This document shows, piece after piece, positions 8,249-24,200 of a DNA stretch of 64,000 nucleotides (position 1 is its first letter; each line of letters starts with the position of its first letter). The notes below the pieces were generated by a model, which made no database searches, was not told the DNA's origin, and saw only the letters and a list, made by a program, of their open reading frames with translations. The translations under genes and the position numbers were made by a program. This stretch comes from Candidatus Binatia bacterium (GTDB lineage Bacteria > Desulfobacterota > Binatia > UBA9968 > JAJDTQ01): contig OY762897.2 in NCBI GenBank assembly GCA_963666515.2, forward strand, positions 3,872,001 to 3,936,000. The letters are read 5' to 3'.

Positions 8249-11200
8249 ATGCGGTTCAGTGAGTCCTCCATGATCCGTTTCTTCGTCCGCCACCCCACGG
8301 CTGCAAACCTGGTGATGATCGGGTTCATCCTGGTGGGGCTGGCGTTCGCCGGCACCATCAAGCGCGAGACCTTTCCCGAAATACCGTCCAAGTTGGTGGA
8401 AGTGCAGGTGCGTTTTCCGGGAGCCTCGGCGCTGGACGTGGAAGACGGCATCTGCCTGCGCATCGAGAGCGTGGCGGACGCCATCGACAACCGCGCGGAG
8501 ACCCGTTGCGAGGCTCGGGAAGGGCTGGCGGTGGCCACCCTGGAGATGCGCGAGGGCGGCGACCTCGACCGCTTCCTCGACGACGTCAAGAACCAGGTCG
8601 ACGGCATCCAGGACTTTCCCGACGAGGCCGAGCCGCCGGTGGTGCGGCAACTGGGGCTGAGGGACACGGTTGCGAACATTGCCGTGGCCGGGCCGTTGCA
8701 GCCGGAAGGACTGAAGGCCTACGCGGAACGAGTCAAGGACGACCTGCTGGCGATTCCGGGGGTCGCCCGGGTCCGGCTTCAGGGTTTCTCCCAGCGTCAG
8801 ATCCGCATCGAGGTCCCGGCCTCCACCATGCGCCAGTTCGGGCTCAGCGTGGACGACTTGGCCGATGCCGTAGCCGGCCAGAGCGTGACCCTCCCGGCGG
8901 GGTCGGTGGAGACCCGCGACAGCACGGTGCTGATCCGGTTCGACGACGAACGGCGGAGCCCCCAGGCGTTCGAAGGGCTGGTGGTGGTGGCTTCGGCCAG
9001 CGGCGCCGTGGTCCGGTTGGGGGACATCGCCACCATCACCGACCGATTCGAGCGACTCGGGGAAAAGAACGTCTTCAACGGCCAGCCGGCGGCCTTTCTG
9101 GTCGTGGAGAAGAACCGGGACGACGACATCCTCCACGTCATCGACGAACTCAACGCCTACCTCGAAGATCAGCGCCGCCGCGCGCCGCCGGGCATGGTGT
9201 TCGAGGTCACCCGCGACATCGCCTCCATCGTGCGGGACCGCCTGACCATGCTGTTGAACAACGGCATGCAGGGGCTCGGGCTGGTGTTCCTGGTCCTGTG
9301 GCTGTTCTTCGGGTGGCGCTATTCGTTCTGGGTCACCGCGGGGCTGCCGGTGGCCTTCATGGGCACCGTCGCCGGCATGGCGTTCATCGGCTACTCCTTC
9401 AACATGATCACCATGGTGGCCCTGCTCATCGGCGTCGGCCTGATGATGGACGACGCCATCGTCATCGCGGAGAACATTGCCCGCCATCGCAGCGCCGGGC
9501 GGTCGGTCACGGATGCGGCGGTGGAGGGAACCCGCGAGGTGGCCCCGGGGGTGGTGGCGTCGTTCCTGACCACGGTCGCCGTGTTCGGGGCGCTGGGCTT
9601 TCTCCGGGGCGACATCGGCGCCGTGCTGCGGGTCTTGCCGGTGGTCATAATCCTGACGCTGTCGTTCAGCCTGGTGGAGGCGTTCCTGATCCTGCCGCAC
9701 CACTTGATGGGGACGTTGGAGGCCGTTGGCCCGGCGCGGCCCCGCGGTTTCCGTGCTCGATTCGAGACCGGCCTGGAGCGCTTCGCCGATGGGTTCGTGG
9801 GACGCCTGGTGGATGCCGCGGTGTCGTGGCGCTACCTCACGGTGGGGGTGGTCGCGGGCCTGTTCCTGGCGTCGGTGGCGGTGATGGCCGGCGGCGTGCT
9901 CAAGTTCAAGGTCTTCCCCAGTACCGAGGGCAACATCCTCGAGGCGCGCCTGCTGCTTTCGCAGGGGACGCCGCTGGCCCGCACCGAAGCCGCGGTGGAA
10001 CGGGTGGTGGCGGCCATACGGGCCGTGGACGAGGCCTACGCCGCCGGCCGGGCCGATGGCCGGAAGATGGTCCAAAACATCGGCATTCAGTTCAGCCGCA
10101 ATCTTGATGCCAATGAGTCGGGGGAGCACCTGGCCACCGTCACCGTGGACTTGGTGGGGCCCGAGTCACGCTATGCGTCGCTGGACGAGATCGCCGGCCG
10201 GTGGCGGGACGAGGTGGGGATGCCGCCGGACATGGTTGCGCTGAGCTTCGGGGAGCCGCGCAACCCGGTCTCCGCGAGGCCCATCGACCTCCGTCTGCTG
10301 GGGGACGACGTGGAAGCGCTGAAGGCCGCTTCCGGGGAGTTGTTGGAGTGGCTCCGCGGTTATGACGGCCTGCTCGATCTCTCCGACGACCTGCGCCTCG
10401 GCAAGCCGGAGCTGCGCGTGCGGCTGCGGGAGGGCGCCCTGGTCTTGGGGCTCACCGCGTCCGAGGTGGCGCGGCAGCTTCGGGCGGCGTTCTACGGCCG
10501 CCGCGCCGGCGAGTTCCAGGTCGGGGCGGAGGACTACGAGATCGACATCCGTTTGTCCGGCCGCGACCGGGACAGCCTCGCCGACCTCGGGCGCTTCACC
10601 GTCACCCTGCCGGGCGGAGAGCAGGTGCCGTTGCACACGGTGGCCACGCTGACCTCCGAGCGGGGCTATGGCCGCATTCACCGCATCAACGGCCGCCGCG
10701 CGGTGACCGTCCAGGGTGAGCGGGATTCTACGAGGGCCAATGCCGCGGAGGTTCTCGACGATACGAAGGCGCGGTTTCTGCCCGGGCTTCTGGCCCGGTA
10801 CCCGGGCGTCAGCGTGGGGCTCGAGGGTCAGGCGCGCCAGTCGGAGGAGACCGGGTCGTCGCTGGGGCGCAACTTCCTGGTCGGGCTGGCCGCCATCTTC
10901 CTCCTGCTGAGCTTCCAGTTCCGCAGCTACATCGAACCCCTGGTGGTCATGGCCTCCATTCCCGTGGGCCTCCTGGGGGTGGTCGTCGGGCATCTTGCCC
11001 TGGACCTGGAGCTTTCCATGCCCAGCCTGGTGGGGTACGTCTCCCTTGCGGGTGTGGTGGTCAACAACGCCATCGTGCTGGTGGCCTTCATCAAGATCCA
11101 CCGCCGCGGCGGCGAGTCCGCGGAGGCCGCCTCGCGGCGCGCCGCCCGGCAGCGCTTTCGCGCCATCCTGCTGACCTCGCTGACCACGGTGGCGGGGGTG

Positions 11201-11362
11201 CTTCCGCTCCTCACGGAGACCAGCCTCCAGGCCCAGGTGCTGATCCCGCTGGTGACCAGCCTCGCTTTCGGCTTGGCCGCGTCCACGTTCCAGGTGCTGT
11301 TCCTGGTGCCTGTGCTGTATTCCATCCTGGACGACTTCGGTTGGACCGAGGACGTGAGGTAG
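8249..11362 (+). CDS. RND efflux transporter permease (AcrB/AcrD/AcrF family)
   Basis: 1037 aa with two large soluble loops and two TM bundles. TM4 proton-relay MDDAIVIAEN and RFRAILLTSLTT are present. The start could instead be the ATG at 8270 (MIRFF). Confidence 0.92.
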   Translation: MRFSESSMIRFFVRHPTAANLVMIGFILVGLAFAGTIKRETFPEIPSKLVEVQVRFPGASALDVEDGICLRIESVADAIDNRAETRCEAREGLAVATLEMREGGDLDRFLDDVKNQVDGIQDFPDEAEPPVVRQLGLRDTVANIAVAGPLQPEGLKAYAERVKDDLLAIPGVARVRLQGFSQRQIRIEVPASTMRQFGLSVDDLADAVAGQSVTLPAGSVETRDSTVLIRFDDERRSPQAFEGLVVVASASGAVVRLGDIATITDRFERLGEKNVFNGQPAAFLVVEKNRDDDILHVIDELNAYLEDQRRRAPPGMVFEVTRDIASIVRDRLTMLLNNGMQGLGLVFLVLWLFFGWRYSFWVTAGLPVAFMGTVAGMAFIGYSFNMITMVALLIGVGLMMDDAIVIAENIARHRSAGRSVTDAAVEGTREVAPGVVASFLTTVAVFGALGFLRGDIGAVLRVLPVVIILTLSFSLVEAFLILPHHLMGTLEAVGPARPRGFRARFETGLERFADGFVGRLVDAAVSWRYLTVGVVAGLFLASVAVMAGGVLKFKVFPSTEGNILEARLLLSQGTPLARTEAAVERVVAAIRAVDEAYAAGRADGRKMVQNIGIQFSRNLDANESGEHLATVTVDLVGPESRYASLDEIAGRWRDEVGMPPDMVALSFGEPRNPVSARPIDLRLLGDDVEALKAASGELLEWLRGYDGLLDLSDDLRLGKPELRVRLREGALVLGLTASEVARQLRAAFYGRRAGEFQVGAEDYEIDIRLSGRDRDSLADLGRFTVTLPGGEQVPLHTVATLTSERGYGRIHRINGRRAVTVQGERDSTRANAAEVLDDTKARFLPGLLARYPGVSVGLEGQARQSEETGSSLGRNFLVGLAAIFLLLSFQFRSYIEPLVVMASIPVGLLGVVVGHLALDLELSMPSLVGYVSLAGVVVNNAIVLVAFIKIHRRGGESAEAASRRAARQRFRAILLTSLTTVAGVLPLLTETSLQAQVLIPLVTSLAFGLAASTFQVLFLVPVLYSILDDFGWTEDVR

Positions 11363-11842
11363 TCAAGGCAACAGGAGGTGCCGCTGTACCTTCGGGAGAC
11401 CACTTTGACTGAGTCGCCGGGCTTGAGGGGAATTACGGGAAATTGTGATACTCGAACTGGCAATCCACACGAAACGGCGATTGTCGCTGGCGAAATCGGT
11501 CAGCCGTCGGAGTTCCGGCGCCTCGCCATTCAACCAGTCTTTCAGCCATTGGAGCTTCTTGAGAACAGCAGAAACTTCACTTGTCGTCGCCGAATGAACT
11601 TCGACCCAGATTGCCTGCTCCTTCCCGTGTGTTGGCTTATAGCCGAGACCGTAATCCCACCGCGGTTTAGCGGCGTGGGCTGGCGTTTTCTGGAGTGCTG
11701 AATCAAGATCTATACTCCCGGTCAGCCGCCGTGCATCTGGGCATGTCACACGGCTGCTATACTTCGCCAAAGCCTGTTTCCCGGCACGATAGGCCTCGTT
11801 CACTGGGGAAGGCGCGGTTTCAACAGCCGCCTTGAAGGTCAT
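11363..11842 (-). CDS. Hypothetical 159-aa protein with a PD-(D/E)xK-like motif, coupled to the ATPase
   Basis: The ATG at 11842 overlaps the ATPase stop (ATGA). Sequence SIDLD...RWDYGLGY...WVEVH...KKLQWL. The N-terminal 95 aa in the ORF track overlap the ATPase and are unlikely to be real. Confidence 0.75.
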   Translation of the reverse strand: MTFKAAVETAPSPVNEAYRAGKQALAKYSSRVTCPDARRLTGSIDLDSALQKTPAHAAKPRWDYGLGYKPTHGKEQAIWVEVHSATTSEVSAVLKKLQWLKDWLNGEAPELRRLTDFASDNRRFVWIASSSITISRNSPQARRLSQSGLPKVQRHLLLP

Positions 11843-13002
11843 GACGTTTCGGCCGACCTGCGGGTTGCGACTTCGGCGACTACATCCCCAACCTTGCCGG
11901 AGAATTCGGTGAGTCCACCCCATCCTCCTTCGGCGATGTTGTCCGATCCGGGATCGAGGTCCGATATGTCGTGAACAATGCCGTCGCGTTTGAAATAGTA
12001 GGTTCTGAACGCGCTCTCTAGAGCAGACCCAGCAAGTTCTTTCGTCTTCTTGTTGGAGGCCAAGCCAAGAAGCTTCAGGACATCCCTGGTCTGTCCGCCG
12101 TTCTCCTGGAAGAAGCGTAGCGCCCAAACGACGTCAAGGACATGGGGCGAATGGGTAGAGATGCAGATGCGGTATCCACGCAACCGCAACTCCATGATAA
12201 GATTGAGGACAGCGCCGATTCCGTTCGGATGCAGCCCCGTTTCCGGTTCCTCGATCACAACCCACTCAAGATCGTCGCGTCGCGACACTTTCGACGGTGG
12301 CAAGAGCCAATACAGCCCGAGCAACAGCGGCACGAATTCACGCTGCCCGGCTGACCATACGAGGTATGGCAAGGCCTGAACCATACTTCGGTTCAGAACA
12401 AGCCGGCCTTGGTGTCCCGACGTATCGGTGCGCAACTCGAAACCGCCGAAAATGTGTCTGTCCAACGGTACTCGCAGGGTTTTCGCCAAACGTTGTCGAC
12501 GCGGAAAGACACCTTCATCGAGACCTATTTCGTTTTGCACGATGCCATGGAGTTTTTCGCTGAAGTCCCGCAGGACGAACGGATCGCCGGCCCGGTACTC
12601 CGTGAACGGACGGGTCATTCCGTCGCGTAAGCTCATCACCCGCTGCGCGGGAATGTAGAACAGTTTCTCCGGAGCATCGGATCGACTTGGGCGTGTGTAG
12701 GTCAAGAGATCGGTTGTCTTATGTGCTCGGCCGAGAAACAATCGGCTGTTGTCCTTGGACCAAATGGACGCCATTCCTTCACCGAAATAAAGATCGAAGA
12801 AATTGCTCGCATAACCCCGCTGCGCCAAACCAAAACGCTGCATGGTTTTGTGAATCGCAGGTCTGTCCAAGAGCAATTTCAGAAGTTGGAGGAAGATGCT
12901 TTTTCCGGTCGCCTGCGGCCCTACGAATATTGTAACGTCACCGAGCTGGATATCCGCTTCGGTGACCGGCCCAATATTGGTTGCTCTTAGCCGCTGGATC
13001 AT
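11839..13002 (-). CDS. ABC-type (AAA_15/AAA_21) ATPase, putative defence-associated
   Basis: Walker A GPQATGKS, YIPAQR, signature WSAGQ, Walker B/D-loop VVIEEPETGLHP, H-loop STHSP. No TM segments. SD GGAGG. GC is lower than the flanks. Confidence 0.88.
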   Translation of the reverse strand: MIQRLRATNIGPVTEADIQLGDVTIFVGPQATGKSIFLQLLKLLLDRPAIHKTMQRFGLAQRGYASNFFDLYFGEGMASIWSKDNSRLFLGRAHKTTDLLTYTRPSRSDAPEKLFYIPAQRVMSLRDGMTRPFTEYRAGDPFVLRDFSEKLHGIVQNEIGLDEGVFPRRQRLAKTLRVPLDRHIFGGFELRTDTSGHQGRLVLNRSMVQALPYLVWSAGQREFVPLLLGLYWLLPPSKVSRRDDLEWVVIEEPETGLHPNGIGAVLNLIMELRLRGYRICISTHSPHVLDVVWALRFFQENGGQTRDVLKLLGLASNKKTKELAGSALESAFRTYYFKRDGIVHDISDLDPGSDNIAEGGWGGLTEFSGKVGDVVAEVATRRSAETS

Positions 13003-13252: not shown

Positions 13253-15061
13253 ATGCCTACCAGGGAGATCGCCACACTCGGTGACCTGCTCCGGTATCGG
13301 GCGGCGGCGACCCCGGACCGGACCGCCTTCGTGTTCCAGTCCTGGCGCCTGGACGAACCCGACGAGGAAGAGCTGACGTACCGCGGCCTGCTGGCCCGCT
13401 CGCAGGCGGCTGCGGATGCGCTGAAGGCGCGCTGCCGCCGGCGCGACCGTGCCCTGATCCTGTGCCCGCCGGGGCTTGACTACATCGTATCGTTCTTTGC
13501 CTGCCAGCTTGCCGGTCTCGTGGCGGTGCCGGTGTATCCGCCGCGCAACGTCCAGCACATGGGCCGGCTCAGGGCCATCATCGAAGACGCCGGCGCGTCC
13601 GCCATCCTGACTCCGGAGAAGGCGACGGGCCGGCTGATGGACCTGTCCCGCTCCGGCGGCCCGGCCGCGGCCGTTCCGCTCCCGCCCCTGATCGCGGTTG
13701 ACTCCCTGGACGGCGCTGCCGCCGCGGATTCCTCCGGCCGCGCCCCCGGCATCGGCGCCGCCGACCTGACCTACCTGCAGTACACCTCGGGCACCACCGG
13801 AAGACCGAAGGGGGTGATGGTCAGCCATGCCGCCGCCCTGGCGCAGCTCAAGGCCCTCCAGGACCGGCTCCGCCTGGACGAAACGGACGTCGGCGTCTTC
13901 TGGCTGCCGCTGTTCCACGACATGGGCTTGGTGGGGGGGATGTTGCAGCCGCTCTTCAGCGGCTTCCCGTGCTACATGATGGCCCCGACCGCGTTTGCGC
14001 AGCGGCCCATGTCCTGGCTCCGCACCATCTCCAGGGTGCGGGGGACTTTCTCGTACGCTCCGAACTTCGCCTATGACCTATGCGCGTCGGCCTTCGATCC
14101 GGCCGTGCACGGCGACGGACTCGACCTGTCCTGCTGGTCTTTCGCCGGCAACGCTTCGGAAATCGTCCGCGCGGCAACGCTCCAACGGTTTGCCGACCGT
14201 TTCGCCCCGTACGGCTTCGTGGCCGAAAGCCTCTCGCCGTGTTTCGGCCTGGCCGAGTTCACGCTGATCGCCACGGCCCGGACGCGGCGCGTCAAGCCGT
14301 CCGCGCCCGCCGAAACCGCGAGCCGCGACAACGGGCCCGCGGGCGGCGGCGAGCCAGGCGAGCCAAGGGACGCGTCCGGCGGAGCGGTCGGCTGCGGTTC
14401 CATCGTGGACGATCATGCATTGAAGATCGTCGATCCCGACACCGCGGTCGAGTGCGCCGCAGGAGAGACGGGGGAAGTCTGGCTGTCGGGACCCTCCGTA
14501 GCCGGGGGTTATTGGCATCGCGCCGAGGAGACCGAGGCCGCCTTCGGCGCCCGGCTCGCGGAAGAGCCCGGCAGCGGGCCCTGGCTGCGCACCGGAGACA
14601 AGGGCGCGTTGATTGGCGGGGAGTTGCGTCTGCTGGGCCGTTTCAAGGAAATGATCATCGTCCGCGGGCGCAACCACTACGCCCAGGACCTGGAGGAGAG
14701 CGTGGCGGAAGCCTGCCCGGGCCTGAAGCGGGACCGGGCCGCGGCCTTCGGCGTCGTGGTGGACCTGCAGGGCCGCGCCGCGGCGCCGGACGGCGCTCTG
14801 GCCGAGGGCGAGGAGCGGGTGGTGGTCATCCAGGAACTCGACCGCGCCGGCCTGCGCCGCGGGGACACCGGCGCCGCCTGCGACGCCATGCGGCGCGCCA
14901 TCGCCCGCGACCACGAGGTGGAGCCCTACGCGGTGGTGCTGATCAAGCCGGCGACCCTGCCCCGCACGTCGTCGGGCAAGATTGAAAGAACGCGCGCCCG
15001 GACCCTGTTCCTGTCCGGAGGACTGGCCGAAGTGGACCGTTGGCAGCGCCCGGGCGACTGA
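13253..15061 (+). CDS. Fatty acyl-AMP ligase (FAAL), PKS starter loading
   Basis: AVPVYPP, YLQYTSGTTGRPKGV, WLPLFHDMGL, APNFAY, CFGLAE, WLRTGD, IIVRGRNHY, LPRTSSGK. Lies directly upstream of a PKS that begins with an ACP. Confidence 0.9.
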   Translation: MPTREIATLGDLLRYRAAATPDRTAFVFQSWRLDEPDEEELTYRGLLARSQAAADALKARCRRRDRALILCPPGLDYIVSFFACQLAGLVAVPVYPPRNVQHMGRLRAIIEDAGASAILTPEKATGRLMDLSRSGGPAAAVPLPPLIAVDSLDGAAAADSSGRAPGIGAADLTYLQYTSGTTGRPKGVMVSHAAALAQLKALQDRLRLDETDVGVFWLPLFHDMGLVGGMLQPLFSGFPCYMMAPTAFAQRPMSWLRTISRVRGTFSYAPNFAYDLCASAFDPAVHGDGLDLSCWSFAGNASEIVRAATLQRFADRFAPYGFVAESLSPCFGLAEFTLIATARTRRVKPSAPAETASRDNGPAGGGEPGEPRDASGGAVGCGSIVDDHALKIVDPDTAVECAAGETGEVWLSGPSVAGGYWHRAEETEAAFGARLAEEPGSGPWLRTGDKGALIGGELRLLGRFKEMIIVRGRNHYAQDLEESVAEACPGLKRDRAAAFGVVVDLQGRAAAPDGALAEGEERVVVIQELDRAGLRRGDTGAACDAMRRAIARDHEVEPYAVVLIKPATLPRTSSGKIERTRARTLFLSGGLAEVDRWQRPGD

Positions 15062-15180
15062 ACCATATCATTTTAGATATTGTATTTTTGAATATTGTTA
15101 TGAATTGTGTTCGGTTGTGCTTCAAGATTGGGGTATAATGGCGGTATCTTCTCGATATGTATGAATTTGTTCAGATTTTG
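15062..15180 (+). promoter_or_regulatory. AT-rich intergenic island with a putative PKS promoter
   Basis: TTCGGT (15110-15115), 17 nt spacer, perfect TATAAT (15133-15138), preceded by about 50 nt of A/T-rich UP-like sequence in otherwise ~70% GC DNA. Confidence 0.6.
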
Positions 15181-15212
15181 TCAGCCGGTATCTGCTCGCG
15201 AGGGAGACCGAG

Positions 15213-18200
15213 ATGAGTGCCGACAGGACTGACCCGAGAACGTTGGAGGCGTGGCTGCGGTCACGGATCGCGGAGGCCGCGGGTCTGCCGTCCGGCGAGG
15301 TGGGTCTGGACCGGGAACTGGCGGAGTTGGGGATCGACTCGCTGCGCGCGGCCCAGGTGGCCGCGGAGATAGAGGAGCGTCTGGGGGCGAGGTTCGACGC
15401 CAGCGAAATCTACGATCACCCGACCATCCGGAGGCTGGCGGCGTACCTGAGCGGCGGGCCGGACCGGGCATCGGAGGAGCGCAACAGGGCGCCGGCGGCG
15501 GAGCCCATAGCCATCGTCGGGATGTCGTGCCGTTTTCCCGGCGGCGGAGGATTGCCGGGATTCTGGCGGTTGCTGGAAAGCGGCGGCGATGGAGTGAGTC
15601 CGGGTCGCGGAGGCGACCTGGAGGAGCGGCTGGGACGGGTGTGGGCTGACGTGGGGACGATGGGACCGGGCGGCTACATCGGGGGGGTGGATCTGTTCGA
15701 CGCGGAGTTCTTCCGCATTGCGCCGGTGGAGGCGCGGCTGATGGACCCGCAGCAGCGGCTGTTGCTGGAGACCACCTGGGAGGCCCTGGAATGGGCGGGG
15801 ATTGACCCCGAAGGCCTCCGGGGAAGCCGGACCGGAGTGTACACGGGGATATCGAGCCACGATTACTGGGATTTGCTGTTGGCCTGCGGGGGGGAGGACT
15901 CGGAGAGCCTGTACATGGCGACGGGCGCGAGCATGAGCACCGCGGCGGGCCGGATCGCCTTTGCGCTGGGGCTGGCGGGGCCGGCGCTGGCGGTGGATAC
16001 GGCCAGCTCGTCCTCGCTTGTGGCGGTGCACCAGGCGGTGACGGCCTTGCAGTGGGGGGAGACGGACTTGGCGTTGGCGGGCGGGGTGAACGTGATGCTG
16101 TCGCCGGCGTTGACCGCGGCGTTCAGGAGCGGCGGGGTGCTGTCCCCGGACGGGCGCTGCAAGACGTTCGACGTGTCCGCCAACGGGATCGTGCGGGGCG
16201 AGGGCTGCGGGATGCTGGTGCTGAAGCGGTTGCGGGACGCGGAGGCTTCGGGTGACCGGATATGGGCCGTGATCCGGGGGTCGGCGGTGAACCAGGACGG
16301 GGCCAGCGCGGGCTTGGCGGCGCCGAACAGGTCGGCGCAAGAACGCGTGATCGAGGGCGCGCTGGCGCGGGCGGGGCTGGCGCCCTCGGAGGTGGACTAC
16401 CTGGAGGCGCACGGGACCGGGACGGAGTTGGGCGACCCGATCGAGATCCGCGCGGCGGCGACGGCGTATGGCGCGGGGCGCGACCCCGGGCGTCCTCTCC
16501 TGATGGGATCGGTGAAGACCAACATCGGACACCTGGAGGCTGCGGCCGGGGCAGCGGGATTGATCAAGGTGGTGCTGTCGATGGCGCACGGGGTGGTTCC
16601 GAAGCACCTGCATCTTCGCACGCCGACCCCGCGCGTAGAGTGGGAACTTCTGCCGGTGCGGGTGGCGCCGGACGGAGAGGCGTGGCCGGTGCGGGAGGGT
16701 CGTCCGCGGCGGGCGGGGATCAGCTCGTTCGGTTACGCGGGGACCAACGCTCACATGGTGGTGGAGGGATACGGAAGGGCGTCGGAGGCGGCCGGGTTCC
16801 TGCTGGCGGCGGGACCGGCGGTGGAGGTGAGCTGGCCGGAAGAGGTCGCGCGCCTGCGCCCCGAGGGGGGTGAAGCGCGGGCGGCCTCGCGGGGAAGGCG
16901 TCTGCTGCCGTTGTCGGGCCGGACCGAAGACGGGCTGCGGGCGCTGGCGGGCCGCTATCTGGAGTGGCTGGACGAAAGTACGCAGTCCACCTCCGACCCT
17001 GCCGGGGGGAGTCCGGGTCCGGGCGGGACGGACTGGCTGGGGGACGTGGCGTGGACGGCCGCGGTAGGCCGGAGCCACCGCGGCTTGCGCGCGCGGGTGA
17101 CGTTCGGCGGCGTCGAGGAGTTGCGCGAGAAGCTGGCGGCGCTGGCGGGCGGCGTGGATGCGGCCTCGGCGGCGTCGGGATCGGCGGGCGGAGCGCGGGT
17201 GGGGTTTCTTTTCACCGGACAGGGGAGCCAGTGGCCGGGCATGGGCCGGGACCTCTACGAGAGCGAACCCGTGTTCCGGGCGGTGCTGGACCGGTGCGAG
17301 GCGGAGGTGCGCGGCCTGCGCGGGGAGTCGTTGCTGGAGGTGATGTTCGAGCCGGGGCGCGGGGACGATCTGGCGGACACGCGCTGGACGCAGCCGGCCC
17401 TGTACGCGCTGGAGGCGGGTCTGCTGGAGCTGTGGCGGAGCGTCGGGGTGAGGCCGTCGGCGGTGCTGGGCCACAGCGTGGGAGAGATCGCCGCGGCCTA
17501 CGCCGCCGGCGCGTTCACGCTGGAGGCCGGGGCGCGGTTTGCCGCGGTGCGCGGCGGGTTGATGGGGTCGGTGAGCGAGGCGGGCGCCATGGCCGCAGTG
17601 TTCGGCCCGGCGGATTGGGTGTCGGGTCTGGTGGCGGAGTTGAACCGGGACGGCGCGGCGCCGGAACTGAGCGTGGCCGCGTACAACGGCGGGCACCAGG
17701 TCGTGAGCGGGGCCGCGGACGCCGTGGTCGCGGCGCTGGAGCGTTGCCGGTCGGAAGGGGTGCGGGCGGAGCGTCTTCGGGTGAGCCACGCGTTCCACAG
17801 CGGCTTGATGGAGCCGGTCCTGGACGAGTTGGAACAGGCGGCCGAGGACTTGCAGGCGTCGCCGCCGCGGGTGCCCCTGGCGAGCAACGTGACCGGCCGG
17901 ATGGCGGCGCCGGGAGAGGCGCTGGACGGGGCGTACTGGCGGCGGCACGCGCGGGAGCCGGTGGCGTTCGCCGCGGGGGTGCGGGCGCTGGCGGAGTCCG
18001 GGGTGGACGTGCTGGTGGAGGTGGGGCCGCGGCCGGTGCTGGGGCCCATGGCATTGCTGGCCTGGCCGGGAGAGGAGGCGGGTGAAGCGGCCGGGTCTTC
18101 CGGGGAATCGCCGGGCACGCGGCCCGGAAGACCGCTGGTGCTGCCGAGCCTGAGGCCGCCGGAACAGGGCGGCGGCGGGGGGTTCGCGGAAGCGGCCGCG

Positions 18201-21200
18201 GGCGCCTACGAGGCGGGTTTGAGCCTGAGCTTCGAGGGATTGTTCGTCGGCGAGGCGCGCCGGCGGGTGACGTTGCCGGGTTATCCGTTCCAGCGGCGGC
18301 GGTACTGGGTGGACGCGGCGCACGAGGTGCGCCGGGGCGTGGACCGGCATCCGGTCGGGGGCCGCGCTGACGATCTCCCGTACACGCAGGTGTGGCGGGA
18401 GGCGGAGAATTGCGGACCGCAGCCGGCGGCGTTCCTGCTGTCTCCCGAAGCCGCGGCGGCCGCGGCGGGCGGAATTGAAGAACACCTGGGGGCGGAAGGG
18501 TTGTCGCTGCCGGAGGCCGCGGCGTTGGCCGGCGACCTGGAACGGGTGTCCCGCGGGTATGCGTTGGCGACGTTGGACGCGTTGGGGTGGCGGCGGGAGC
18601 GCGGCGAGGAGGTGGAGACGGAGGCGTTGCGGCGCCGCCTGGAAGTGGTTCCGGACCACTCCGCGGCTTTCGGCCGGCTGTTGAGGCTGGCGGCGGCCGC
18701 GGGAGTCCTGGCGCCGGCGGCGGGCGGCCCGGACGGTTCCATGTGGCGCGCGGTATCGGGTTCGGAGGAAGGGTTGGCGGACGGCGCGCTGGCGGACCCG
18801 GACGGCCTCGCCGCGGCGCTGGCGGAGCGTCGCCCCGCGATGGCCGTCGAGCTGGCCCTGCTGTCGCGTTGCGCGGGTTCGCTGGCGGAGGTCCTGCGCG
18901 GGCGGTCGTCGCTGGTGGGTCTCCTGTTTGGCGAGGCGAGGCCGAACGCCGCGGAGCTGTACCGGGAAGCGCCGGCGATGCGCGCGGTGAGCCGGTTGGC
19001 AGGGGCGGTGGCGGGTGCGGCGGTCTCGGAGCTGCCCGCGGGGCGCCGGTTGCGCGTCCTGGAGCTGGGAGCGGGCACCGGAGGCACGACGGATTGGGTC
19101 CTGGCGGCGCTGCCGGAGGGGCGGTACGAGTACGCCTTCACCGACGTATCCGCGGGATTCTTCCCCGCGGCGCAGGAGCGGTTCGGCAACGGCGATCCGC
19201 TGGAATACCGGGAGCTGGACGTCGAGCGGGACCCGGTGGAACAGGGATTCCCCGCGCACGGGTACGACCTGGTGGTGGCGGCGAACGTGCTGCACGCGAC
19301 GCGGGACCTGAGGGAGACGCTGGCGCATTGCCGCCGGTTGCTGGCGCCGGACGGTTTGCTGGTGGCGCTGGAGGGCATGGAGCCGCAGGGGTGGCTGGAC
19401 GTGGCGTTCAGTCCGTTGGAGGGCTGGTGGCGGTTCCGGGAGGGAGCGGACGGATATCGTGAAGACTACCCGTTGATGGGGGCGGGTGAGTGGCGGCGGG
19501 CGCTCGGGGACGCCGGGTTCGGGGAGATGACGGTGGCGGGGCTGGCGGAAGAAGGCGCGTGGCAGGGCGTGGTGGTTGCGCGCGGGCCCGCGGAGTTGGA
19601 GGAGCCGGAGGGGTTGTGGGTGGTGGCCCCGGACGAGGGCGGCGAGGGCTTGGAGTTGGCGCGGCGGCTGGCGGAGCGCAACCAGCGGGTGGTGGTGGCG
19701 CTGGACGAGTCCGCGGGAGAGGCCGGGGATCCGACGGCGGCGGGCGTGGCCTCGGCGCGGCTGGACACGTCGAGCCGGGACGGCTGGTGCGGACTGCTGG
19801 CGGGGCTGTCCGGGGCGCCGTTGCGCGGGGTGGTGCATCTGGCGGCGTTGTCGGGACACGGCGGAAGCGCGGACGCGGCCGGGCCGGCGGCGGACGTGGA
19901 ACGCCTCGTCGGCAGCGCGCTGGCGCTGGCGCAGGGGTTGGCGGACGCCGGCGCGGAGCCGTCCGCGGGGTTGTTCCTGGTGACGCGCGGCGGGCAGGTG
20001 GTGGAGCGGGAGACCGGCGGGCAGTTGTCCGGCGCGGCGTTGTGGGGTTTGGGGCAGACGCTGGCGCAGGAGGCCGGGCCGTCGCGGCTGCGGATGGTGG
20101 ACCTGGACCCGGCCGCGGACGCCGGCATCGGCGGGTTGGTGGACGAGTTGCTGCACCCGGACGGGGAGACGCGGGTGGCGCACCGAGGCGGCGGCCGGCG
20201 GGTATTGCGCCTGGTCGGCGCGGAGGCCGGTCCGGGGCTGCCGGAGGACGGCGAGTCGCGGCTCGGGGCGGGCGCTGGCGGGGGGCCGGCGCGGCTGGCC
20301 GCGGGCGTTGGCGACGGCGCCGCAGAGCCGCCGGCCGGCCTGTTGGAGCGGTTGCGGCAAGCGCGGGCGTCGGATCGGGAGGAGCTGCTGCTCGGATTCG
20401 TGCGGCGGGAGCTGCAGGCGGTGTTGGGGCTTCCGTCCCTGCCCGCGGCCGGGGTGGGGTTCTTCGACCTCGGCATGGACTCGTTGATGGCGGTCAAGTT
20501 CCAGACCGGCCTGAACCGGGGTCTGGCGGGGGTGTATTCCGCGCCGAGCACCGTGGCCTTCGACTACGCCAGTTGCGAGCTTCTGGCCCGTCACCTGGCG
20601 GAGCAACTGGGGGTTCTCGATGCGCCGGCGGAACCGGCGCACCGGGCGCCGGCGCCGGGCGGCGACGAAGAGGTGGCGGTGGTGGGGATGGCGTGCCGTT
20701 TCCCCGGCGGCGGGGACCTGGCAGCGTTCTGGCGGCTGCTGGAGTCCGGCGGGGATGCGGTCACGGAGGGGCGTGACCGGCTCCCCGGGTCTTCCGCGGT
20801 AACGCCCTGGAGCGCGGCGCTGGCCGAGGGGTCGAACCGGTGGGGCGGTTTCATCGAGGGGCTGGACCTCTTCGACGCCGAGTTCTTCCGTATAGCGCCG
20901 GTGGAGGCGCGGCTGCTGGACCCGCAGCAGCGGTTGCTGCTGGAGACGAGCTGGCAGGCGCTGGAGTCGGCGGCTACGGACGCGGCGCGGCTCAAGGGCA
21001 GCCGCACCGGAGTGTACGCCGGGATATCGAGCCACGACTACTGGGACATGTTGTCGGCCGCGGGTGGGGAGGACGCGCTGGCCATGTACGCGGCCACCGG
21101 GGCCAGCGGCAGCACCGCCATCGGCCGGGTGGCGTTCGTGCTGGGGCTGGAGGGACCGGTGCTGGCGGTGGACACGGCGTGCTCGTCGTCGCTGGTGGCG

Positions 21201-24200
21201 GTGCACCAGGCGGTGCTGGGATTGCAGCGGGGCGACGCCGACCTGGCGCTGGCGGGCGGGGTGCACGTGATGCTGTCGCCGGCGGTGACGGAGTCGTTCC
21301 GGCGCGGCGGGATGCTGTCTCCGGACGGGCGCTGCAAGACGTTCGACGCGTCGGCGAACGGGTACGTCCGCGGCGAGGGCTGCGGGGTGGTGGTGCTGAA
21401 GCGGCTGCGGGACGCGGAGGCGGACGGGGACCGGATCTGGGCCGTGATCCGTGGGTCGGCGGTGAACCACGACGGCGCGAGCGCGGGGCTGACGGTGCCG
21501 AGCGGGCCGGCTCAGGAGCGTGTGATCGGGACGGCGTTGGCGCAGGCGGGTCTGTCGCCCGCGGAGGTGGACTACCTGGAGGCCCACGGGACCGGGACGG
21601 AGCTGGGGGACCCGATCGAGGTGAATGCCGCGGCCGCGGCGTATGGCGCGGGCCGCGAGCCGGAGCGTCCGCTGCTGCTGGGGTCGGCCAAGACCAACGT
21701 GGGACACCTGGAGGCGGCTGCCGGGGTGGCGGGGCTGATCAAGGTGGTGCTGTCGATGGCGCACGGGGTGATCCCCAAGAGCCTGCATTTTCGGGAGCCG
21801 AATCCGCACGTGGACTGGGCGGGGCTGCCGGTGCGGGTGGTGTCGGAGCAGGAGGAGTGGCCGGTGCGGGAGGGGGCGCCGGCGCGGGCGGGGGTGAGTT
21901 CGTTCGGGTTTTCGGGGACCAACGCGCACGTGGTGGTGGAGGGGTATGGAGACGCGTCGGAGCAGGGGAAAGGGCTGACGGGTTCCGGGCGGGCGGTGCC
22001 GGTGGGATCGCCGGACGGGCTCGTGGAGGAAGGGCCGGAGGGTGGTGATGAGTGTGAGGCACGGGAGCGCCGGCTGCTGGCGTTGTCGGGCCGGACGGAG
22101 GGGGCGGTGCGGGAGTTGGCGGGTCGTTACGTGGAGTGGCTGGAGGAGCAAGGGCCGTGGACGGACGAGGGTGTCGAGGATGGGGATTTGTCCGGGCGGG
22201 AGAGGTTGGCGGACATGGCGTGGACGGCCGGGGTGGGACGGAGCCACCACGGGCATCGGGCGGGGGTCACGTTTGCGGGTGCCGAGGAGTTGCGCGGGAA
22301 GCTGGCGGAGCTGGCGGAGGGGAGGAGCGCGCCGGGGGTGTCGGCGGGATCGAGGGCGGCGCGGGAGAGCGAGGAGGCGCCGAAGGTGGGCTTTCTGTTC
22401 ACGGGCCAGGGGAGCCAGTGGGCGGGGATGGGCCGCGGGCTGTACGAGCGGGAGCCGGTGTTCCGCGGGGTCCTGGACCGGTGCGAGGCCGCGGTGCGTG
22501 AGCTTCGCGGGGAGTCGCTGCTGGAGGTGATGTTCGGGGAGGAGGGAGCCGAGGGGTCTCTGGACGACACGCGGTGGACGCAGCCCGGGTTGTACGCGCT
22601 GGAGGCAGGGTTGTGCGAGTTGTGGGCGAGCATGGGTGTGAGGCCGTCGGCGGTGCTGGGCCACAGCGTTGGGGAGATAGCGGCGGCGTATGCGGCGGGG
22701 GTTTGGACGCTGGAGGAAGGGGTGCGGTTTGCGGCGCGGCGCGGAGAGTTGATGAGGAATTTGCCGGTGTCGGGGCCGAGGGCAGGAGCGATGGCCGCGG
22801 TGTTCACGACGGCGGGGGGAGTGGAGGAGCTGGTGGCGGCGGTGAACGGGACGAAGGGTGGAGAGGATTGGCTGAGCGTAGGGGCGTACAACGGAGCGCA
22901 CCAGGTGGTGAGCGGAGCGGCCGGGGCCGTGGAGGCTCTGCTGGAGCAATGTGAGGGGAGCGGGATACGCGCGGCGCGGTTGCGTGTGAGCCACGGGTTC
23001 CACAGCGTGCTGATGGAGCCGGTTCTGGAGGAGTTGGAGGGGTTGCTGGAGGGGGTGGGTGTATCGGCGCCCGGGGTGGATTTGGTGAGCAACTTGACCG
23101 GGCGGGTGATGGGAGCGGGAGAGTTGATGGACGGGGCGTACTGGCGGCGTCACGCGCGGGAGCCGGTGGCGTTCGGGGCCGGGGTGGCGGCGTTGTCGGA
23201 GATGGGGGTGGAGGTGCTGGTGGAGTTGGGGCCGGGGCCGGTGCTGGGCGCGATGGCGGCATTGGCGTGGCCGGTGGGAGAGGTCAACGGCGCCGCGGCG
23301 CCTTCGGGCTCGGGGGCTGGGGGGCCGGTGGTGGTGCCGAGTCTGAGAGGCAAGGGTGAGGATGGCGTCGGGGGAACGTCGGACGGCGGTTTCGTGGAGG
23401 CGGTGGCGGGGGCGTATGCGGCCGGGTTGGAGGTGGGCTTCGCGGGCCTGTTCGTGGGAGAGGAGCGCCGCCGGGTGTCGTTGCCGGGGTATCCCTTCCA
23501 GCGGCAGCGGTACTGGGCGGATGCAACCGCGCCCGAGTTCCCGTCGGTGGCAAGGCGCGCGGAGGAACTGCTGTACACGCCGGTCTGGCGCGAGGCCGCG
23601 TCCGCGGGCGAGCCGCGGCAGGGGGTGGCCGAGGCGGAAGCGGCGCCGGGGCTGTGGGTGGTGGCGTTGGACCATGAGGGCGAGGGGATGGAGCTGGCGG
23701 GAGAGCTGGCGGCGCGGAATCAGCGCGTGGTGGCGGTGGCGGACGAGGGGGTGGAGGTAGATGAGGCGTCAGGAGCGGACGTGGTGCGGCTGGCGACCTC
23801 GAGCCGGAAGGGATGGCGGGGACTGCTGGAGGGGTTGTCGCAGGAGGGGTTGCGGGGCGTGGTGCATCTCGGAGCGTTGTCGGGTCACGGGTGCGGCGCG
23901 GCCGCGGCGGAGATGGCGGAGGACGTGGAGCGCGGGACCGGGAGCGCGCTGGCGCTGGCGCAAGGGCTGCTGGACGCCGGGGTGGAGCCGGCCGCGGGGC
24001 TGTGGCTGGTGACGCGCGGGGCGCAGGTGGTGGCGGAGGAGCGGGCGGGCGAGTTGGCGGGAGCGGCGCTGTGGGGGCTGGGGAAGACGCTGGTGCTGGA
24101 GGCGGGGCAGGTAAAGCCCCGGTTGGTGGATTTGGACCCGGAGGAGGAGAGCGGGTTCGAGGCTCTGGTGGAGGAGTTGCTGCGCCCGGACCGGGAGACG

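What the first reader, a model, noticed from the sequence alone, without database searches (positions are those of the whole stretch)
13253..20610. Unusual initiation: FAAL and ACP0 feed a Cys-to-Ser KS with AT, cMT and no catalytic KR
Seen: the M1 KS has AGC (Ser, 16005-16007) in DTASSSSL where the other seven KS have DTACSSS. Both catalytic His motifs ([15 protein letters not shown]) are intact, and other active-site motifs also differ ([24 protein letters not shown]). The AT (GHSVG/HAFH), MT ([15 protein letters not shown]) and ACP look intact. Known: Ser-type KS domains occur in polyene loading modules (NysA/AmphA), KSQ domains decarboxylate malonyl-ACP, and MT-plus-decarboxylase loaders make propionyl or isobutyryl starters (gephyronic acid). 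Inference: there are three options. M1 is a self-priming loader (malonyl, methylated, decarboxylated to a branched starter) and the FAAL/ACP0 acyl chain is used elsewhere, e.g. for O-acylation. Or the Ser-KS still condenses via an oxyester to give an alpha-methyl-beta-keto unit. Or M1 is skipped. I know of no characterised system combining both starter logics in tandem.
Basis: partly seen in the sequence, partly recalled or inferred. Interest (0 to 1): 0.75.

Follow-up and report, generated by a model that had tools for sequence, protein, structure and literature searches.

The report
Serine-ketosynthase start module behind a FAAL
The first module of a giant polyketide synthase in a likely sponge-associated bacterium has serine in place of the catalytic cysteine and has lost all its reducing domains, so it looks like a known kind of non-condensing start module in an unusual form with a methyltransferase and a fatty-acid-loading enzyme.

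Summary
Codon 16005-16007 is AGC (Ser) in DTASSSS. The other 11 ketosynthases (KS) of this 12-KS cluster use TGC or TGT there. Both catalytic His motifs, the AT, the cMT and both ACPs are intact, and no catalytic KR is present.

M1 is collinear with modules M4/M7 (KS-AT-DH-cMT-ER-KR-ACP) but lacks DH, ER and the catalytic half of KR. KS1 nests inside the cluster's own KS clade.

Among 394 related PKS proteins, non-Cys KS (Q 48, S 15, A 2, M 1) occur only as the first KS of a protein (66 of 386), never later (0 of 842). KS1 also carries loop changes typical of decarboxylating KSQ domains.

RimA, PimS0 and the eurocidin loader are CoA-ligase-ACP-KS(Ser)-AT-ACP.

Best reading (0.45): a KS(Ser) initiation module that decarboxylates C-methylated malonyl-ACP, with FAAL-ACP0 as the ancestral loader.

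Rivals are residual condensation or relay through Ser, bypass of M1, and a recent inactivating mutation.

The main gap is that no PKS A ortholog could be retrieved, so conservation of the Ser is untested. This is a new variant of a known kind, of moderate interest.

The parts
13253..15061 (+). Stand-alone fatty acyl-AMP ligase (FAAL), first gene of the high-GC island
   Evidence: Pfam AMP-binding, E 1.2e-64. The best solved relatives are all FAALs: 7r7e (E 6e-131), FadD32, FadD23, FadD28 and 3pbk. The top NCBIfam models are FAAL models, but none reaches its curated cut-off. The database copy of this protein (P0363, 602 aa) starts at 13253.
15213..15467 (+). ACP0, the N-terminal carrier domain of PKS A (GIDSL)
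   Evidence: Pfam PP-binding, E 4.9e-19. It is only 21-26% identical to the 11 in-line ACPs, which are 55-72% identical to ACP1. It is 52% identical to the ACP of a FAAL-ACP-KS(Cys) fusion, P0126.
15501..16790 (+). KS1, a ketosynthase with Ser at the nucleophile position and both His motifs intact
   Evidence: Pfam KS N and C halves. It is 62-72% identical to KS2-KS12 and has 14 unique substitutions at sites invariant in the other 11. It nests inside the cluster's own KS clade.
16005..16007 (+). AGC codon (Ser265 of PKS A) where the other KS have the catalytic Cys
   Evidence: The X6 contig spanning 15742-16218 shows 0 differences.
17205..18095 (+). AT1, a malonyl-type acyltransferase (GHSVG, HAFH)
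   Evidence: Pfam Acyl_transf_1, E 3.4e-66; motifs.
18363..19550 (+). cMT1, a C-methyltransferase with its N-terminal lid, of the extension-module (CurJ) type
   Evidence: Best solved relative is 5thy (CurJ), E 1.8e-65; the SAM motif, NVLHAT His and ALEG Glu are kept. It is 65-66% identical to cMT4 and cMT7.
19572..20255 (+). Structural (pseudo) KR subdomain only; ER and the catalytic KR half are deleted
   Evidence: No Pfam hit in 19401-20201. It is 68% identical to M4 residues 1649-1891, after which the alignment jumps to M4 2469-2557.
20379..20609 (+). ACP1 (GMDSL), carrier domain of M1; KS2 follows at about 20667
   Evidence: Pfam PP-binding. It is 72% identical to the ACP of M4 in BLAST and 55-72% identical to the other in-line ACPs in the MAFFT alignment. 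Domain map.

Best explanation
M1 is a KS(Ser)-type initiation module that evolved from a fully reducing, C-methylating extension module of the cluster's own M4/M7 type. It lost DH, ER and the catalytic half of KR, and its KS nucleophile changed from Cys to Ser, so it no longer elongates efficiently. Proposed mechanism (all inferred): AT1 loads malonyl onto ACP1; cMT1 methylates the malonyl alpha-carbon once or twice; KS1 uses its intact His-His pair to decarboxylate the product to a propionyl- or isobutyryl-type starter; KS2 takes this over. The FAAL-ACP0 pair is the ancestral loading half of a former 'loader plus first extension' bimodule. The Ser KS now insulates it from the line, or leaves it only weakly coupled, as proposed for the CoA-ligase-ACP parts of RimA, PimS0 and the eurocidin loader. 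What is shown: the sequence states, the deletion map, the phylogeny, and the position bias of non-Cys KS. What is inferred: every catalytic step.
For: 1) Position bias. KS1 is also a first KS.
2) Deletion map. M1 aligns to M4 in three collinear blocks: M1 97-1034 with M4 1-939, M1 1051-1690 with M4 1251-1891, and M1 1711-1799 with M4 2469-2557. Exactly DH and ER plus catalytic KR are missing. M1 is the only one of the 11 ACP-bearing modules without any reducing domain.
3) Parallel case. P0326 has a first module KS(Ser)-AT-DH-cMT-psiKR-KR-ACP in which the cMT and KR motifs searched for were not found.
4) KSQ-like loop. KS1 has R284/S285 in place of the G-P of the PNGPxQ loop, and A in place of S420. 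G284 is present in 981 of 1162 Cys-KS but in only 1 of 46 KSQ. R284 occurs in 8 of 1162 Cys-KS against 11 of 46 KSQ. S420 occurs in 970 of 1162 Cys-KS against 1 of 46 KSQ.
5) Both His motifs, the malonyl-type AT, the cMT catalytic motifs and the ACP1 Ser are intact.
6) Age of the lineage. The KS1 lineage splits off before the paralog pairs shared with relatives' clusters, for example own KS6 with P0277 ks2 and own KS8 with P0278 ks1, so it is old.
7) Literature. KS(S) loaders are described as non-condensing, possibly decarboxylating (PMC4540446 and PMC6113372, passages read). KS(S) is described as keeping decarboxylation with reduced Claisen activity, and the CAL-ACP of a eurocidin loader as apparently non-functional (PMC12843615, Results read).
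Against: 1) The FAAL does not look vestigial. It is intact, and four other assemblies hold copies 94-97% identical. The large PKS proteins recovered from relatives are only 76-84% identical, including P0281, which shares a contig length with one FAAL copy.
2) ACP0 is a FAAL-cognate type with its Ser intact.
3) Every other FAAL-linked KS examined keeps Cys: all 12 loci that had a KS downstream, out of 20 examined, and 3 of 3 FAAL-ACP-KS fusions that reach the site.
4) cMT1 is of the CurJ extension type, which I recall acts on beta-ketoacyl-ACP. Its intact state is explained more simply if a beta-keto intermediate is made.
5) Ser is a poorer decarboxylase state than Gln (recalled), and the role of Ser in NysA is disputed (PMC4540446, PMC6113372).
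6) AGC is one nucleotide from TGC, and no ortholog of PKS A was seen, so conservation of the Ser is unknown.
7) The KSQ set is largely one actinomycete clade, so the loop association may be partly phylogenetic.
Confidence: 0.45

Rival explanations
1. The Ser KS is still catalytically engaged with the FAAL-delivered chain. Fatty acyl-ACP0 acylates Ser265 as an oxyester. KS1 then either condenses it with (methyl)malonyl-ACP1 to give an alpha-methyl-beta-keto unit that is deliberately left unreduced, or relays it onward.
For: This reading gives every intact part a job: the FAAL with copies 94-97% identical in four other assemblies, the cognate-type ACP0, the malonyl AT, the CurJ-type cMT and ACP1. 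The layout FAAL plus N-terminal ACP-KS-AT-...-ACP is the standard 'load plus first extension' design, and ACP0-KS1 aligns to the Pks13 N-terminus model over residues 10-522. PMC12843615 (Results read) speaks of reduced, not abolished, Claisen activity in KS(S). AT-less ACP-KS(Ser)-ACP variants (P0006, P0013) cannot self-prime from malonyl in cis.
Against: None of 842 later-position KS carries anything but Cys, which argues that Ser does not sustain elongation. M1 has no KR, and KS1 shows KSQ-like loop changes. As I recall, Cys-to-Ser mutants of KS and FAS lose condensation. All FAAL-linked KS in relatives keep Cys.
Confidence: 0.22
2. M1 is bypassed. Fatty acyl-ACP0 is handed directly to the Cys of KS2, and M1 persists mainly as a structural scaffold of the megasynthase.
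For: KS1 lacks the nucleophile while KS2 is canonical. The FAAL and ACP0 are intact and the FAAL has near-identical copies in other assemblies. KS1 is the second most divergent KS of the cluster, with 14 unique substitutions at otherwise invariant sites.
Against: AT1, cMT1 and ACP1 keep all catalytic motifs and are 55-72% identical to their active paralogs, with no sign of decay. In P0326, by contrast, the cMT and KR motifs behind a KS(Ser) were not found. The KS1 lineage is old, which would have given idle domains time to decay.
Confidence: 0.13
3. The Ser is a recent single-base (T>A) inactivating mutation in this strain or population. M1 was an ordinary KS-AT-cMT-ACP extension module, and the line is now dead or leaky.
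For: AGC differs from TGC by one base. No ortholog of PKS A was retrieved, so conservation is untested. All runs that hold the stretch come from one study.
Against: KS1 has further changes at strongly conserved sites (T280A, G284R, P285S, S420A). Of these, the G284/P285 and S420 states match those of decarboxylating KSQ domains, while T280 is mostly kept in KSQ too (43 of 46). All are absent from the other 11 KS of the cluster. That pattern needs prolonged altered constraint. About 74 kb of PKS coding sequence has no frameshift. First-position Cys-to-Ser changes recur in several separate lineages of the KS tree.
Confidence: 0.15

Closest known systems
RimA (rimocidin/CE-108), PimS0 (pimaricin) and the eurocidin loading module: CoA ligase (CAL)-ACP-KS(S)-AT-ACP
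   Same: An adenylate-forming enzyme and an ACP sit directly upstream of a first KS with Cys replaced by Ser, followed by an AT and an ACP with no KR. The literature treats the KS(S) as non-condensing, possibly decarboxylating (PMC4540446, passages read). It treats the CAL-ACP part of the eurocidin loader as apparently non-functional, and upstream domains in such lines as candidates for evolutionary loss (PMC12843615, Results read).
   Different: Here the activating enzyme is a separate FAAL-family gene rather than a fused CoA ligase. The module carries an intact C-methyltransferase and a leftover structural KR half. KS1 descends from the cluster's own extension KSs. The host is not a Streptomyces polyene producer. 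The FAAL looks conserved rather than decaying. No polyene sequence was placed in my trees.
NysA/AmphA-type KS(S) and KSQ decarboxylative loading modules
   Same: The first KS lacks the Cys nucleophile and keeps both His. KS1 shares the KSQ-typical loss of G284/P285 (Arg at 284) and of S420.
   Different: KS1 has Ser, not Gln, and keeps Q272 where KSQ domains have Asn (42 of 46). An ACP and a FAAL lie upstream, and a cMT sits inside the module. The NysA architecture is recalled, not fetched.
FAAL-primed lines such as FadD32-Pks13 and FadD26-PpsA (recalled), and the FAAL-ACP-KS fusion P0126
   Same: A FAAL is paired with an N-terminal ACP fused to KS-AT-...-ACP. ACP0-KS1 aligns to the NCBIfam Pks13 model over residues 10-522. 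The P0126 FAAL is 50% identical to the window's FAAL and its ACP 52% identical to ACP0.
   Different: Every such KS examined keeps the catalytic Cys. KS1 does not.
Methyltransferase-plus-decarboxylase loaders with a GNAT-type decarboxylase (AprA, GphF, SxtA; recalled)
   Same: The proposed logic is the same: methylate malonyl-ACP, then decarboxylate it to a branched or propionyl starter. AprA MT2 is a detectable relative of cMT1 (E 4e-24).
   Different: No GNAT domain is present. The decarboxylase would be a KS, and cMT1 is far closer to the extension-type CurJ cMT (E 1.8e-65). Two searches of the held library of open-access PMC papers and bioRxiv preprints found no description of a KS-type decarboxylase combined with a cMT in a loader.
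Unnamed environmental [ACP]-KS(Ser)-(AT)-ACP-KS(Cys) starters (P0006, P0009, P0010, P0013, P0015, P0017, P0275, P0312)
   Same: The first KS reads DTASSSS (ETASSSS in P0013). 4 of these 8 have an N-terminal ACP, none has a reducing domain in the first module, and fully reducing cMT modules follow where the sequence extends that far.
   Different: They form their own KS clade (100/99 support for 5 of them; all 8 group together). Their N-terminal ACP is of the in-line type, their first module has no cMT, and their genomic neighbourhood, including any FAAL, could not be seen.
Sup (sponge symbiont ubiquitous) PKS, SupA
   Same: The line ends in a KS followed by a dead, shortened AT and a stop, with no ACP or TE. 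This matches the 3426-aa SupA-like PKS of the same genome. The modules are of the KS-AT-DH-cMT-ER-KR-ACP type. One run labelled 'sponge metagenome' holds a contig about 97% identical in DNA (57 differences in 1688 letters) over the FAAL gene.
   Different: Sup enzymes are described as small monomodular PKSs (PMC4245539, passages read). This line has 12 KS on four proteins plus a FAAL/ACP0/KS(Ser) start.

Membership tests
KS(S)-type loading module (RimA/PimS0/NysA kind) | Active-site Cys replaced by Ser with both catalytic His retained | tested here: met
   AGC in DTASSSS; EAHGTGT and NIGHLE are present.
KS(S)-type loading module (RimA/PimS0/NysA kind) | It is the first KS of the assembly line, followed by a malonyl-type AT and an ACP, with no beta-keto processing | tested here: met
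   Domain order from Pfam and BLAST mapping. AT1 has HAFH. No KR, DH or ER is present.
KS(S)-type loading module (RimA/PimS0/NysA kind) | An adenylate-forming enzyme and an ACP lie upstream (RimA/PimS0 subtype) | tested here: met
   The FAAL gene ends 151 nt upstream of PKS A on the same strand, and ACP0 is fused to KS1. Unlike RimA, the ligase is in trans and of the FAAL type.
KS(S)-type loading module (RimA/PimS0/NysA kind) | Common descent with other KS(S) domains | tested here: not met
   KS1 groups with its own cluster's Cys-KS (95/84 support; 99/92 when KS12 is included). It does not group with the environmental KS(Ser) clades.
KS(S)-type loading module (RimA/PimS0/NysA kind) | Malonyl-ACP decarboxylase activity without condensation | not testable with these tools
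   This needs a biochemical assay. The only indirect support is the KSQ-like loop states.
KSQ decarboxylative loader | Gln at the nucleophile position | tested here: not met
   KS1 has Ser. It also keeps Q272 where 42 of 46 KSQ domains have Asn.
Fatty acyl-AMP ligase (FAAL) | Closest relatives are FAALs rather than acyl-CoA ligases | tested here: met
   PDB: 7r7e at E 6e-131, FadD32 at about 3e-93 to 1e-87, FadD23 and FadD28, against FadD13 (an acyl-CoA synthetase) at 1e-17. The top NCBIfam models are FAAL models, but all score below their curated cut-offs, for example 396 bits against a cut-off of 775.
Fatty acyl-AMP ligase (FAAL) | The FAAL-specific insertion that blocks CoA use | not tested
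   The insertion was not examined residue by residue.
FAAL-primed loader plus first extension module (Pks13/PpsA kind) | A condensing KS with catalytic Cys directly after the FAAL-loaded ACP | tested here: not met
   Ser265. All comparison cases keep Cys: the 12 loci with a downstream KS out of 20 examined, and 3 of 3 FAAL-ACP-KS fusions.
GNAT-MT decarboxylative loaders (AprA/GphF/SxtA kind) | A GNAT-like decarboxylase domain next to the MT | tested here: not met
   Pfam finds no GNAT-type domain in M1.
Sup-type PKS | A tail made of an intact KS plus a dead, truncated AT, with no ACP or TE | tested here: met
   AT12 reads GHGVG, has an internal deletion and lacks HAFH, and the protein ends after the post-AT linker. 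The genome's own SupA-like PKS has the same layout.
Sup-type PKS | A small, essentially monomodular synthase | tested here: not met
   12 KS on four proteins of 8263, 6211, 6843 and 2787 aa.

The most novel reading that the evidence does not exclude
The Ser of KS1 is a working nucleophile. The FAAL-delivered fatty acyl chain on ACP0 is taken up as an acyl-O-Ser ester and is then condensed with C-methylated malonyl-ACP1 or relayed to ACP1 or KS2. That would make this a natural type I ketosynthase operating through an oxyester, and would explain why an apparently conserved FAAL, a cognate ACP0 and an intact extension-type cMT are all kept.
Probability: 0.2. Interest if true: 0.8.

Novelty: new variant of a known kind. 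Interest (0 to 1): 0.45.

Why it matters
What KS(Ser) domains actually do has stayed unresolved since the polyene clusters were sequenced, as has the reason an upstream ligase-ACP pair is kept in front of them. This locus is a useful natural case for both questions. The start module can be read, block by block, as a stripped copy of a neighbouring full extension module. Its KS shows changes convergent with KSQ domains. Its FAAL looks conserved, not decaying. It also keeps a C-methyltransferase, so the two main hypotheses predict different, easily measured products on ACP1: a propionyl or isobutyryl group, or an alpha-methyl-beta-ketoacyl chain. If the decarboxylative reading holds, it would be a KS-based route to branched starters, parallel to the GNAT-MT loaders. 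The census also shows that first-position Cys-to-Ser KS, some preceded by an ACP, recur in uncultured bacteria well outside the actinomycete polyene pathways.

Tried and rejected
1) Ortholog hunt.
- No copy of the cluster was found in the 27 same-genus and 33 same-order genomes searched; the best foreign KS was 57-62% identical.
- The FAAL query on metagenome contigs and genome contigs gave only relatives at 43% identity or less.
- The protein search over the whole PKS A with region 1-1811 timed out.
- Searches in the length ranges 929-2650 aa and 4544-14461 aa found no PKS A ortholog.
- The search against 50%-identity representatives ranked hits by summed multi-domain score and showed nothing above 63% identity.
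- The exact look-up of PKS A (start at 15213) found nothing in the collection.

2) Reads. For the sponge-metagenome run X1, record 2 spans the codon, but its letter at 16005 is not shown in the truncated tables. No listed X5 or X8 piece spans the codon. No conclusion is drawn from these.

3) The first motif count reported only 2 Ser-KS. It was wrong and is superseded.

4) Genomic context of the environmental ACP-KS(Ser) family. The P0010 N-terminus query found nothing except G000 itself among 401 genomes of the window's phylum at E<=1e-150. It found nothing in 401 genomes of the phylum of G460 at E<=1e-160. Only 3 candidates per genome were scored, so this is weak. Matching contig lengths between the FAAL hit list and the KS(Ser) proteins gave no link.

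5) The idea that KS1 arrived together with the FAAL-ACP cassette is rejected. KS1 is 55% identical to the KS of P0126, no closer than its paralogs are.

6) The idea that ACP0 is a duplicate of an in-line ACP is rejected. It is only 21-26% identical to them.

7) Earlier notes of this scan held nothing on this place or on its relatives. The look-up with the FAAL sequence gave unrelated FAAL systems.

Full report
**The observation**

The window holds a compositionally distinct island. The stretch 13,000-87,500 is 72.8% GC, against 65.8% for the genome, and it is flanked by stretches of 55-58% GC.

The island starts with a stand-alone AMP-binding gene (13253-15061). It continues with four co-directional PKS genes: A at 15213-40004 (8263 aa), B at 40020-58655 (6211 aa), C from 58652 (6843 aa, running past the window), and D (2787 aa).

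Codon 16005-16007 is AGC, in frame with PKS A, and gives DTASSSSL. The cluster has 12 KS domains. The other 11 have Cys encoded by TGC or TGT, so the Ser codon is one T>A step from Cys. EAHGTGT and [10 protein letters not shown] are intact.

Pfam gives the order AMP-binding | PP-binding - KS - AT - methyltransferase - (nothing in 19401-20201) - PP-binding.

A Logan contig of run X6 covers 15742-16218 with no difference from the window, so an independent assembly reproduces the codon. All runs that hold the stretch belong to one study and may include the source sample.

**Anatomy of the line**

The domain orders below come from Pfam on single modules and from BLAST mapping with the M4 domains.

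| Unit | Domains |
|---|---|
| FAAL | stand-alone |
| ACP0 | N-terminal carrier domain of PKS A |
| M1 | KS(Ser)-AT-cMT-psiKR-ACP |
| M2 | KS-AT-KR-ACP |
| M3 | KS-AT-DH-ER-KR-ACP |
| M4 | KS-AT-DH-cMT-ER-KR-ACP |
| M5 | KS-AT-DH-KR-ACP |
| M6 | KS-AT-KR-ACP |
| M7 | KS-AT-DH-cMT-ER-KR-ACP |
| M8 | KS-AT-DH-cMT-KR-ACP |
| M9, M10 | KS-AT-DH-ER-KR-ACP |
| M11 | KS-AT-DH-KR-ACP |
| M12 | KS-AT(dead), then stop |

- AT12 reads GHGVG, has an internal deletion and lacks HAFH. No ACP or TE follows, and the next gene belongs to the GH3 family.
- The genome's own 3426-aa SupA-like PKS ends in the same way. Earlier notes of this scan describe that tail as a conserved trait of sponge-symbiont Sup PKSs (these are leads, and I tested them only on this genome).
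- The tail is therefore a family layout, not local decay.

**The loading parts**

- The first gene is a FAAL by similarity. Its best solved relatives are 7r7e (E 6e-131), FadD32, FadD23, FadD28 and 3pbk. The acyl-CoA synthetase FadD13 scores only 1e-17.
- The top NCBIfam models are FAAL models, though all score below their curated cut-offs.
- ACP0 (GIDSL) is only 21-26% identical to the 11 in-line ACPs, which are 55-72% identical to ACP1.
- ACP0 is 52% identical to the ACP of P0126, a FAAL-ACP-KS(Cys) fusion whose FAAL is 50% identical to this one.
- FAAL plus ACP0 is therefore a genuine, cognate loading pair.

**M1 is a stripped extension module**

M1 aligns to M4 in three collinear blocks:

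| M1 residues | M4 residues | Content | Identity |
|---|---|---|---|
| 97-1034 | 1-939 | KS-AT | 65% |
| 1051-1690 | 1251-1891 | cMT plus structural KR half | 65% |
| 1711-1799 | 2469-2557 | ACP | 72% |

- Exactly DH (about 311 aa) and ER plus catalytic KR (about 577 aa) are missing.
- cMT1 aligns end to end with the CurJ cMT structure (E 1.8e-65). It keeps the SAM motif, the NVLHAT His and the ALEG Glu, and it is 65-66% identical to cMT4 and cMT7.
- AT1 has GHSVG and HAFH.
- M1 is the only ACP-bearing module without any reducing domain.

**KS1 among ketosynthases**

- KS1 is 62-72% identical to KS2-KS12. KS2-KS11 are 72-90% identical to each other.
- KS1 has 14 unique substitutions at sites invariant in the other 11. 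KS12 has 20, and the others have 0-7.
- In an IQ-TREE tree, KS1 sits inside the cluster's own clade, with 95/84 support, or 99/92 when KS12 is included.
- In a larger FastTree, KS1 branches off before the paralog pairs shared with relatives' clusters, such as own KS6 with P0277 ks2, own KS7 with P0277 ks3, own KS8 with P0278 ks1 and own KS9 with P0278 ks2. The KS1 lineage is therefore old.
- KS1 is not specially related to the KS of the FAAL fusion P0126 (55% identical, like its paralogs).

**Census of nucleophile residues**

| Position in protein | Cys | Gln | Ser | Ala | Met |
|---|---|---|---|---|---|
| Later KS | 842 | 0 | 0 | 0 | 0 |
| First KS | 320 | 48 | 15 | 2 | 1 |

- Loss of Cys is thus strictly a first-position trait in this sample. 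An earlier count was faulty and is superseded.
- The 15 Ser cases fall in several separate lineages of the tree.
- One clade (P0006, P0009, P0010, P0013, P0015, P0017, P0275, P0312) reads DTASSSS (ETASSSS in P0013). 4 of these 8 have an N-terminal ACP, giving ACP-KS(Ser)-AT-ACP-KS(Cys). In P0006 and P0013 the AT is excised.
- P0326 has KS(Ser)-AT-DH-cMT-psiKR-KR-ACP in which the cMT and KR motifs searched for were not found. This reads as an earlier stage of the same trajectory.

**Convergence with KSQ domains**

After aligning 1227 KS domains to one profile, KS1 shows states that are rare in Cys-KS and usual in KSQ:

| Site | Cys-KS | KSQ | KS1 |
|---|---|---|---|
| G284 present | 981 of 1162 | 1 of 46 | no |
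| R284 present | 8 of 1162 | 11 of 46 | yes |
| Neither G284 nor P285 | 179 of 1162 | 45 of 46 | yes (R-S) |
| S420 present | 970 of 1162 | 1 of 46 (45 have Gly) | no (Ala) |

- None of these changes is present in the other 11 KS of the cluster.
- There are two caveats. The KSQ set is mostly one actinomycete clade, and only 5 of the other 15 KS(Ser) domains lack both G284 and P285.
- KS1 keeps Q272, where 42 of 46 KSQ domains have Asn.

**What is in print**

[quoted passage not shown] PimS0 is 70% identical to RimA.
- PMC6113372 (passages read) lists KS(S) loaders in the nystatin, rimocidin, pimaricin, oocydin and alpiniamide pathways. It notes that the Ser of NysA is not crucial.
- PMC12843615 (abstract, Results and Discussion read) proposes evolution from bimodular (CAL-ACP plus first module) to monomodular starts. 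In that scheme KS(S) keeps decarboxylation with reduced Claisen activity and KSQ is the end point. The paper reports a eurocidin CAL-ACP that appears non-functional.
- Two searches of the held library of open-access PMC papers and bioRxiv preprints found no description of a KS-type decarboxylase combined with a cMT in a loader.

**Evidence that cuts the other way**

- Four other public assemblies carry FAAL copies 94-97% identical to this one.
- The large PKS proteins recovered from relatives are only 76-84% identical and differ in module order. P0277 is 83% identical to PKS B, P0278 is 84% identical to PKS C, and P0281 is 76% identical to its best-matching region. P0281 shares its contig length with one FAAL copy.
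- The FAAL therefore looks strongly constrained, which is not what one expects of a relic.
- Every FAAL-linked KS examined elsewhere keeps Cys. Of 20 loci holding distant FAAL relatives, 12 had a KS downstream, all with Cys, and 8 had none. Some of these loci are duplicates of one record. In addition, 3 of 3 FAAL-ACP-KS fusions that reach the site have Cys.
- cMT1 is of the type that I recall acts on beta-ketoacyl-ACP.

**Verdict on mechanism**

I rank the readings as follows.

1. **0.45.** M1 is a non-condensing KS(Ser) start module. It makes a propionyl- or isobutyryl-type starter from malonyl-ACP1 by C-methylation and KS-catalysed decarboxylation. FAAL-ACP0 is the ancestral loader, now insulated from the line or only weakly coupled to it.
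2. **0.22.** The Ser is a working nucleophile, and the FAAL-delivered chain is condensed or relayed.
3. **0.13.** M1 is bypassed, and ACP0 feeds KS2.
4. **0.15.** The Ser is a recent inactivating point mutation.

All catalytic steps are inferred. Only the sequence states, the deletion map, the phylogeny and the census are shown.

**The main gap**

No ortholog of PKS A could be retrieved. Proteins of 2650-4544 aa were never searched, and the read tables do not show the codon in the related sponge-metagenome run. Conservation of the Ser is therefore untested.

**Novelty**

This is a new variant of a known kind. It is a KS(Ser) initiation module of the RimA/PimS0 logic, but it arose independently from an in-cluster extension module, it carries an intact C-methyltransferase, and it is paired with a separate, apparently conserved FAAL. 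It sits at the head of a 12-KS line with a Sup-type tail, in a genome that also carries a Sup-type PKS.

Noticed in passing
beyond the window: L002:11903-14536 (window-equivalent 84903-87539) and L002:14573-16132: The last module is KS12 followed by a dead, internally deleted AT (GHGVG, no HAFH) and a stop right after the post-AT linker. No ACP or TE follows. The next gene is a 520-aa GH3-family protein with no NCBIfam match. How the chain is released is unexplained.
   Followed up: partly
G000:C1:2390504-2399566 (minus strand): The same genome carries a 3426-aa SupA-like PKS, KS-AT-DH-cMT-psiKR-ER-KR-ACP-KS-AT(dead, GRDLG). It has the same tail layout as PKS D, which suggests the 12-KS line is an expanded relative of Sup-type synthases.
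   Followed up: partly
window 11363-13002 and window-equivalent 89136-91531: The FAAL-to-PKS D island (70.8-74.3% GC gene by gene) is bracketed by low-GC stretches of 55-58%. The left one encodes a minus-strand AAA ATPase with AbiEii-like Pfam hits. Both flanks hold Amidohydro_2 genes. This pattern suggests the island was inserted as a unit.
   Followed up: partly
proteins P0123, P0364-P0366, P0277, P0278, P0281: Relatives share a nearly identical FAAL (94-97%), but their PKS proteins are only 76-84% identical and have a different module order. P0281 is KS-AT-DH-cMT-KR-ACP | KS-AT-DH-KR-ACP | KS-AT-DH-cMT-ER-KR-ACP. The modules appear to be reshuffled around a conserved loader.
   Followed up: partly
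proteins P0006, P0013 (also P0010, P0312): Uncultured-bacterium PKSs start with ACP-KS(Ser). In P0006 and P0013 the AT of that first module is excised while the KS-AT linker remains. These modules could not self-prime from malonyl in cis, so their function is unexplained.
   Followed up: partly
protein P0326, first 2260 residues: The first module is KS(Ser)-AT-DH-cMT-psiKR-KR-ACP, but no SAM motif, no NVLHAT, no NADPH motif and no KR Tyr were found. The gene call also starts inside the KS N-terminal motif, so the true start is unknown.
   Followed up: partly
window minus strand, e.g. 15261-23675, 23769-32105, 43329-53696: Very long antisense ORFs (2804, 2778 and 3455 aa) lie opposite the PKS genes. 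I take them to be by-products of the high GC3 content (0.86-0.91 on the coding strand), not genes.
   Followed up: no
window 16188 (Ile326 codon of PKS A): In all four laid runs, nearly all cross-mapping KS contigs carry T here (Tyr/Phe codon), while the window has A (Ile, in NGIVRGEG). In run X1, 100% of the depth at this site is T.
   Followed up: no
window 8249-11362 and window-equivalent 91532-93253: An RND (AcrB-type) transporter lies upstream of the island and an MFS transporter downstream. Either could be the exporter of the product.
   Followed up: no
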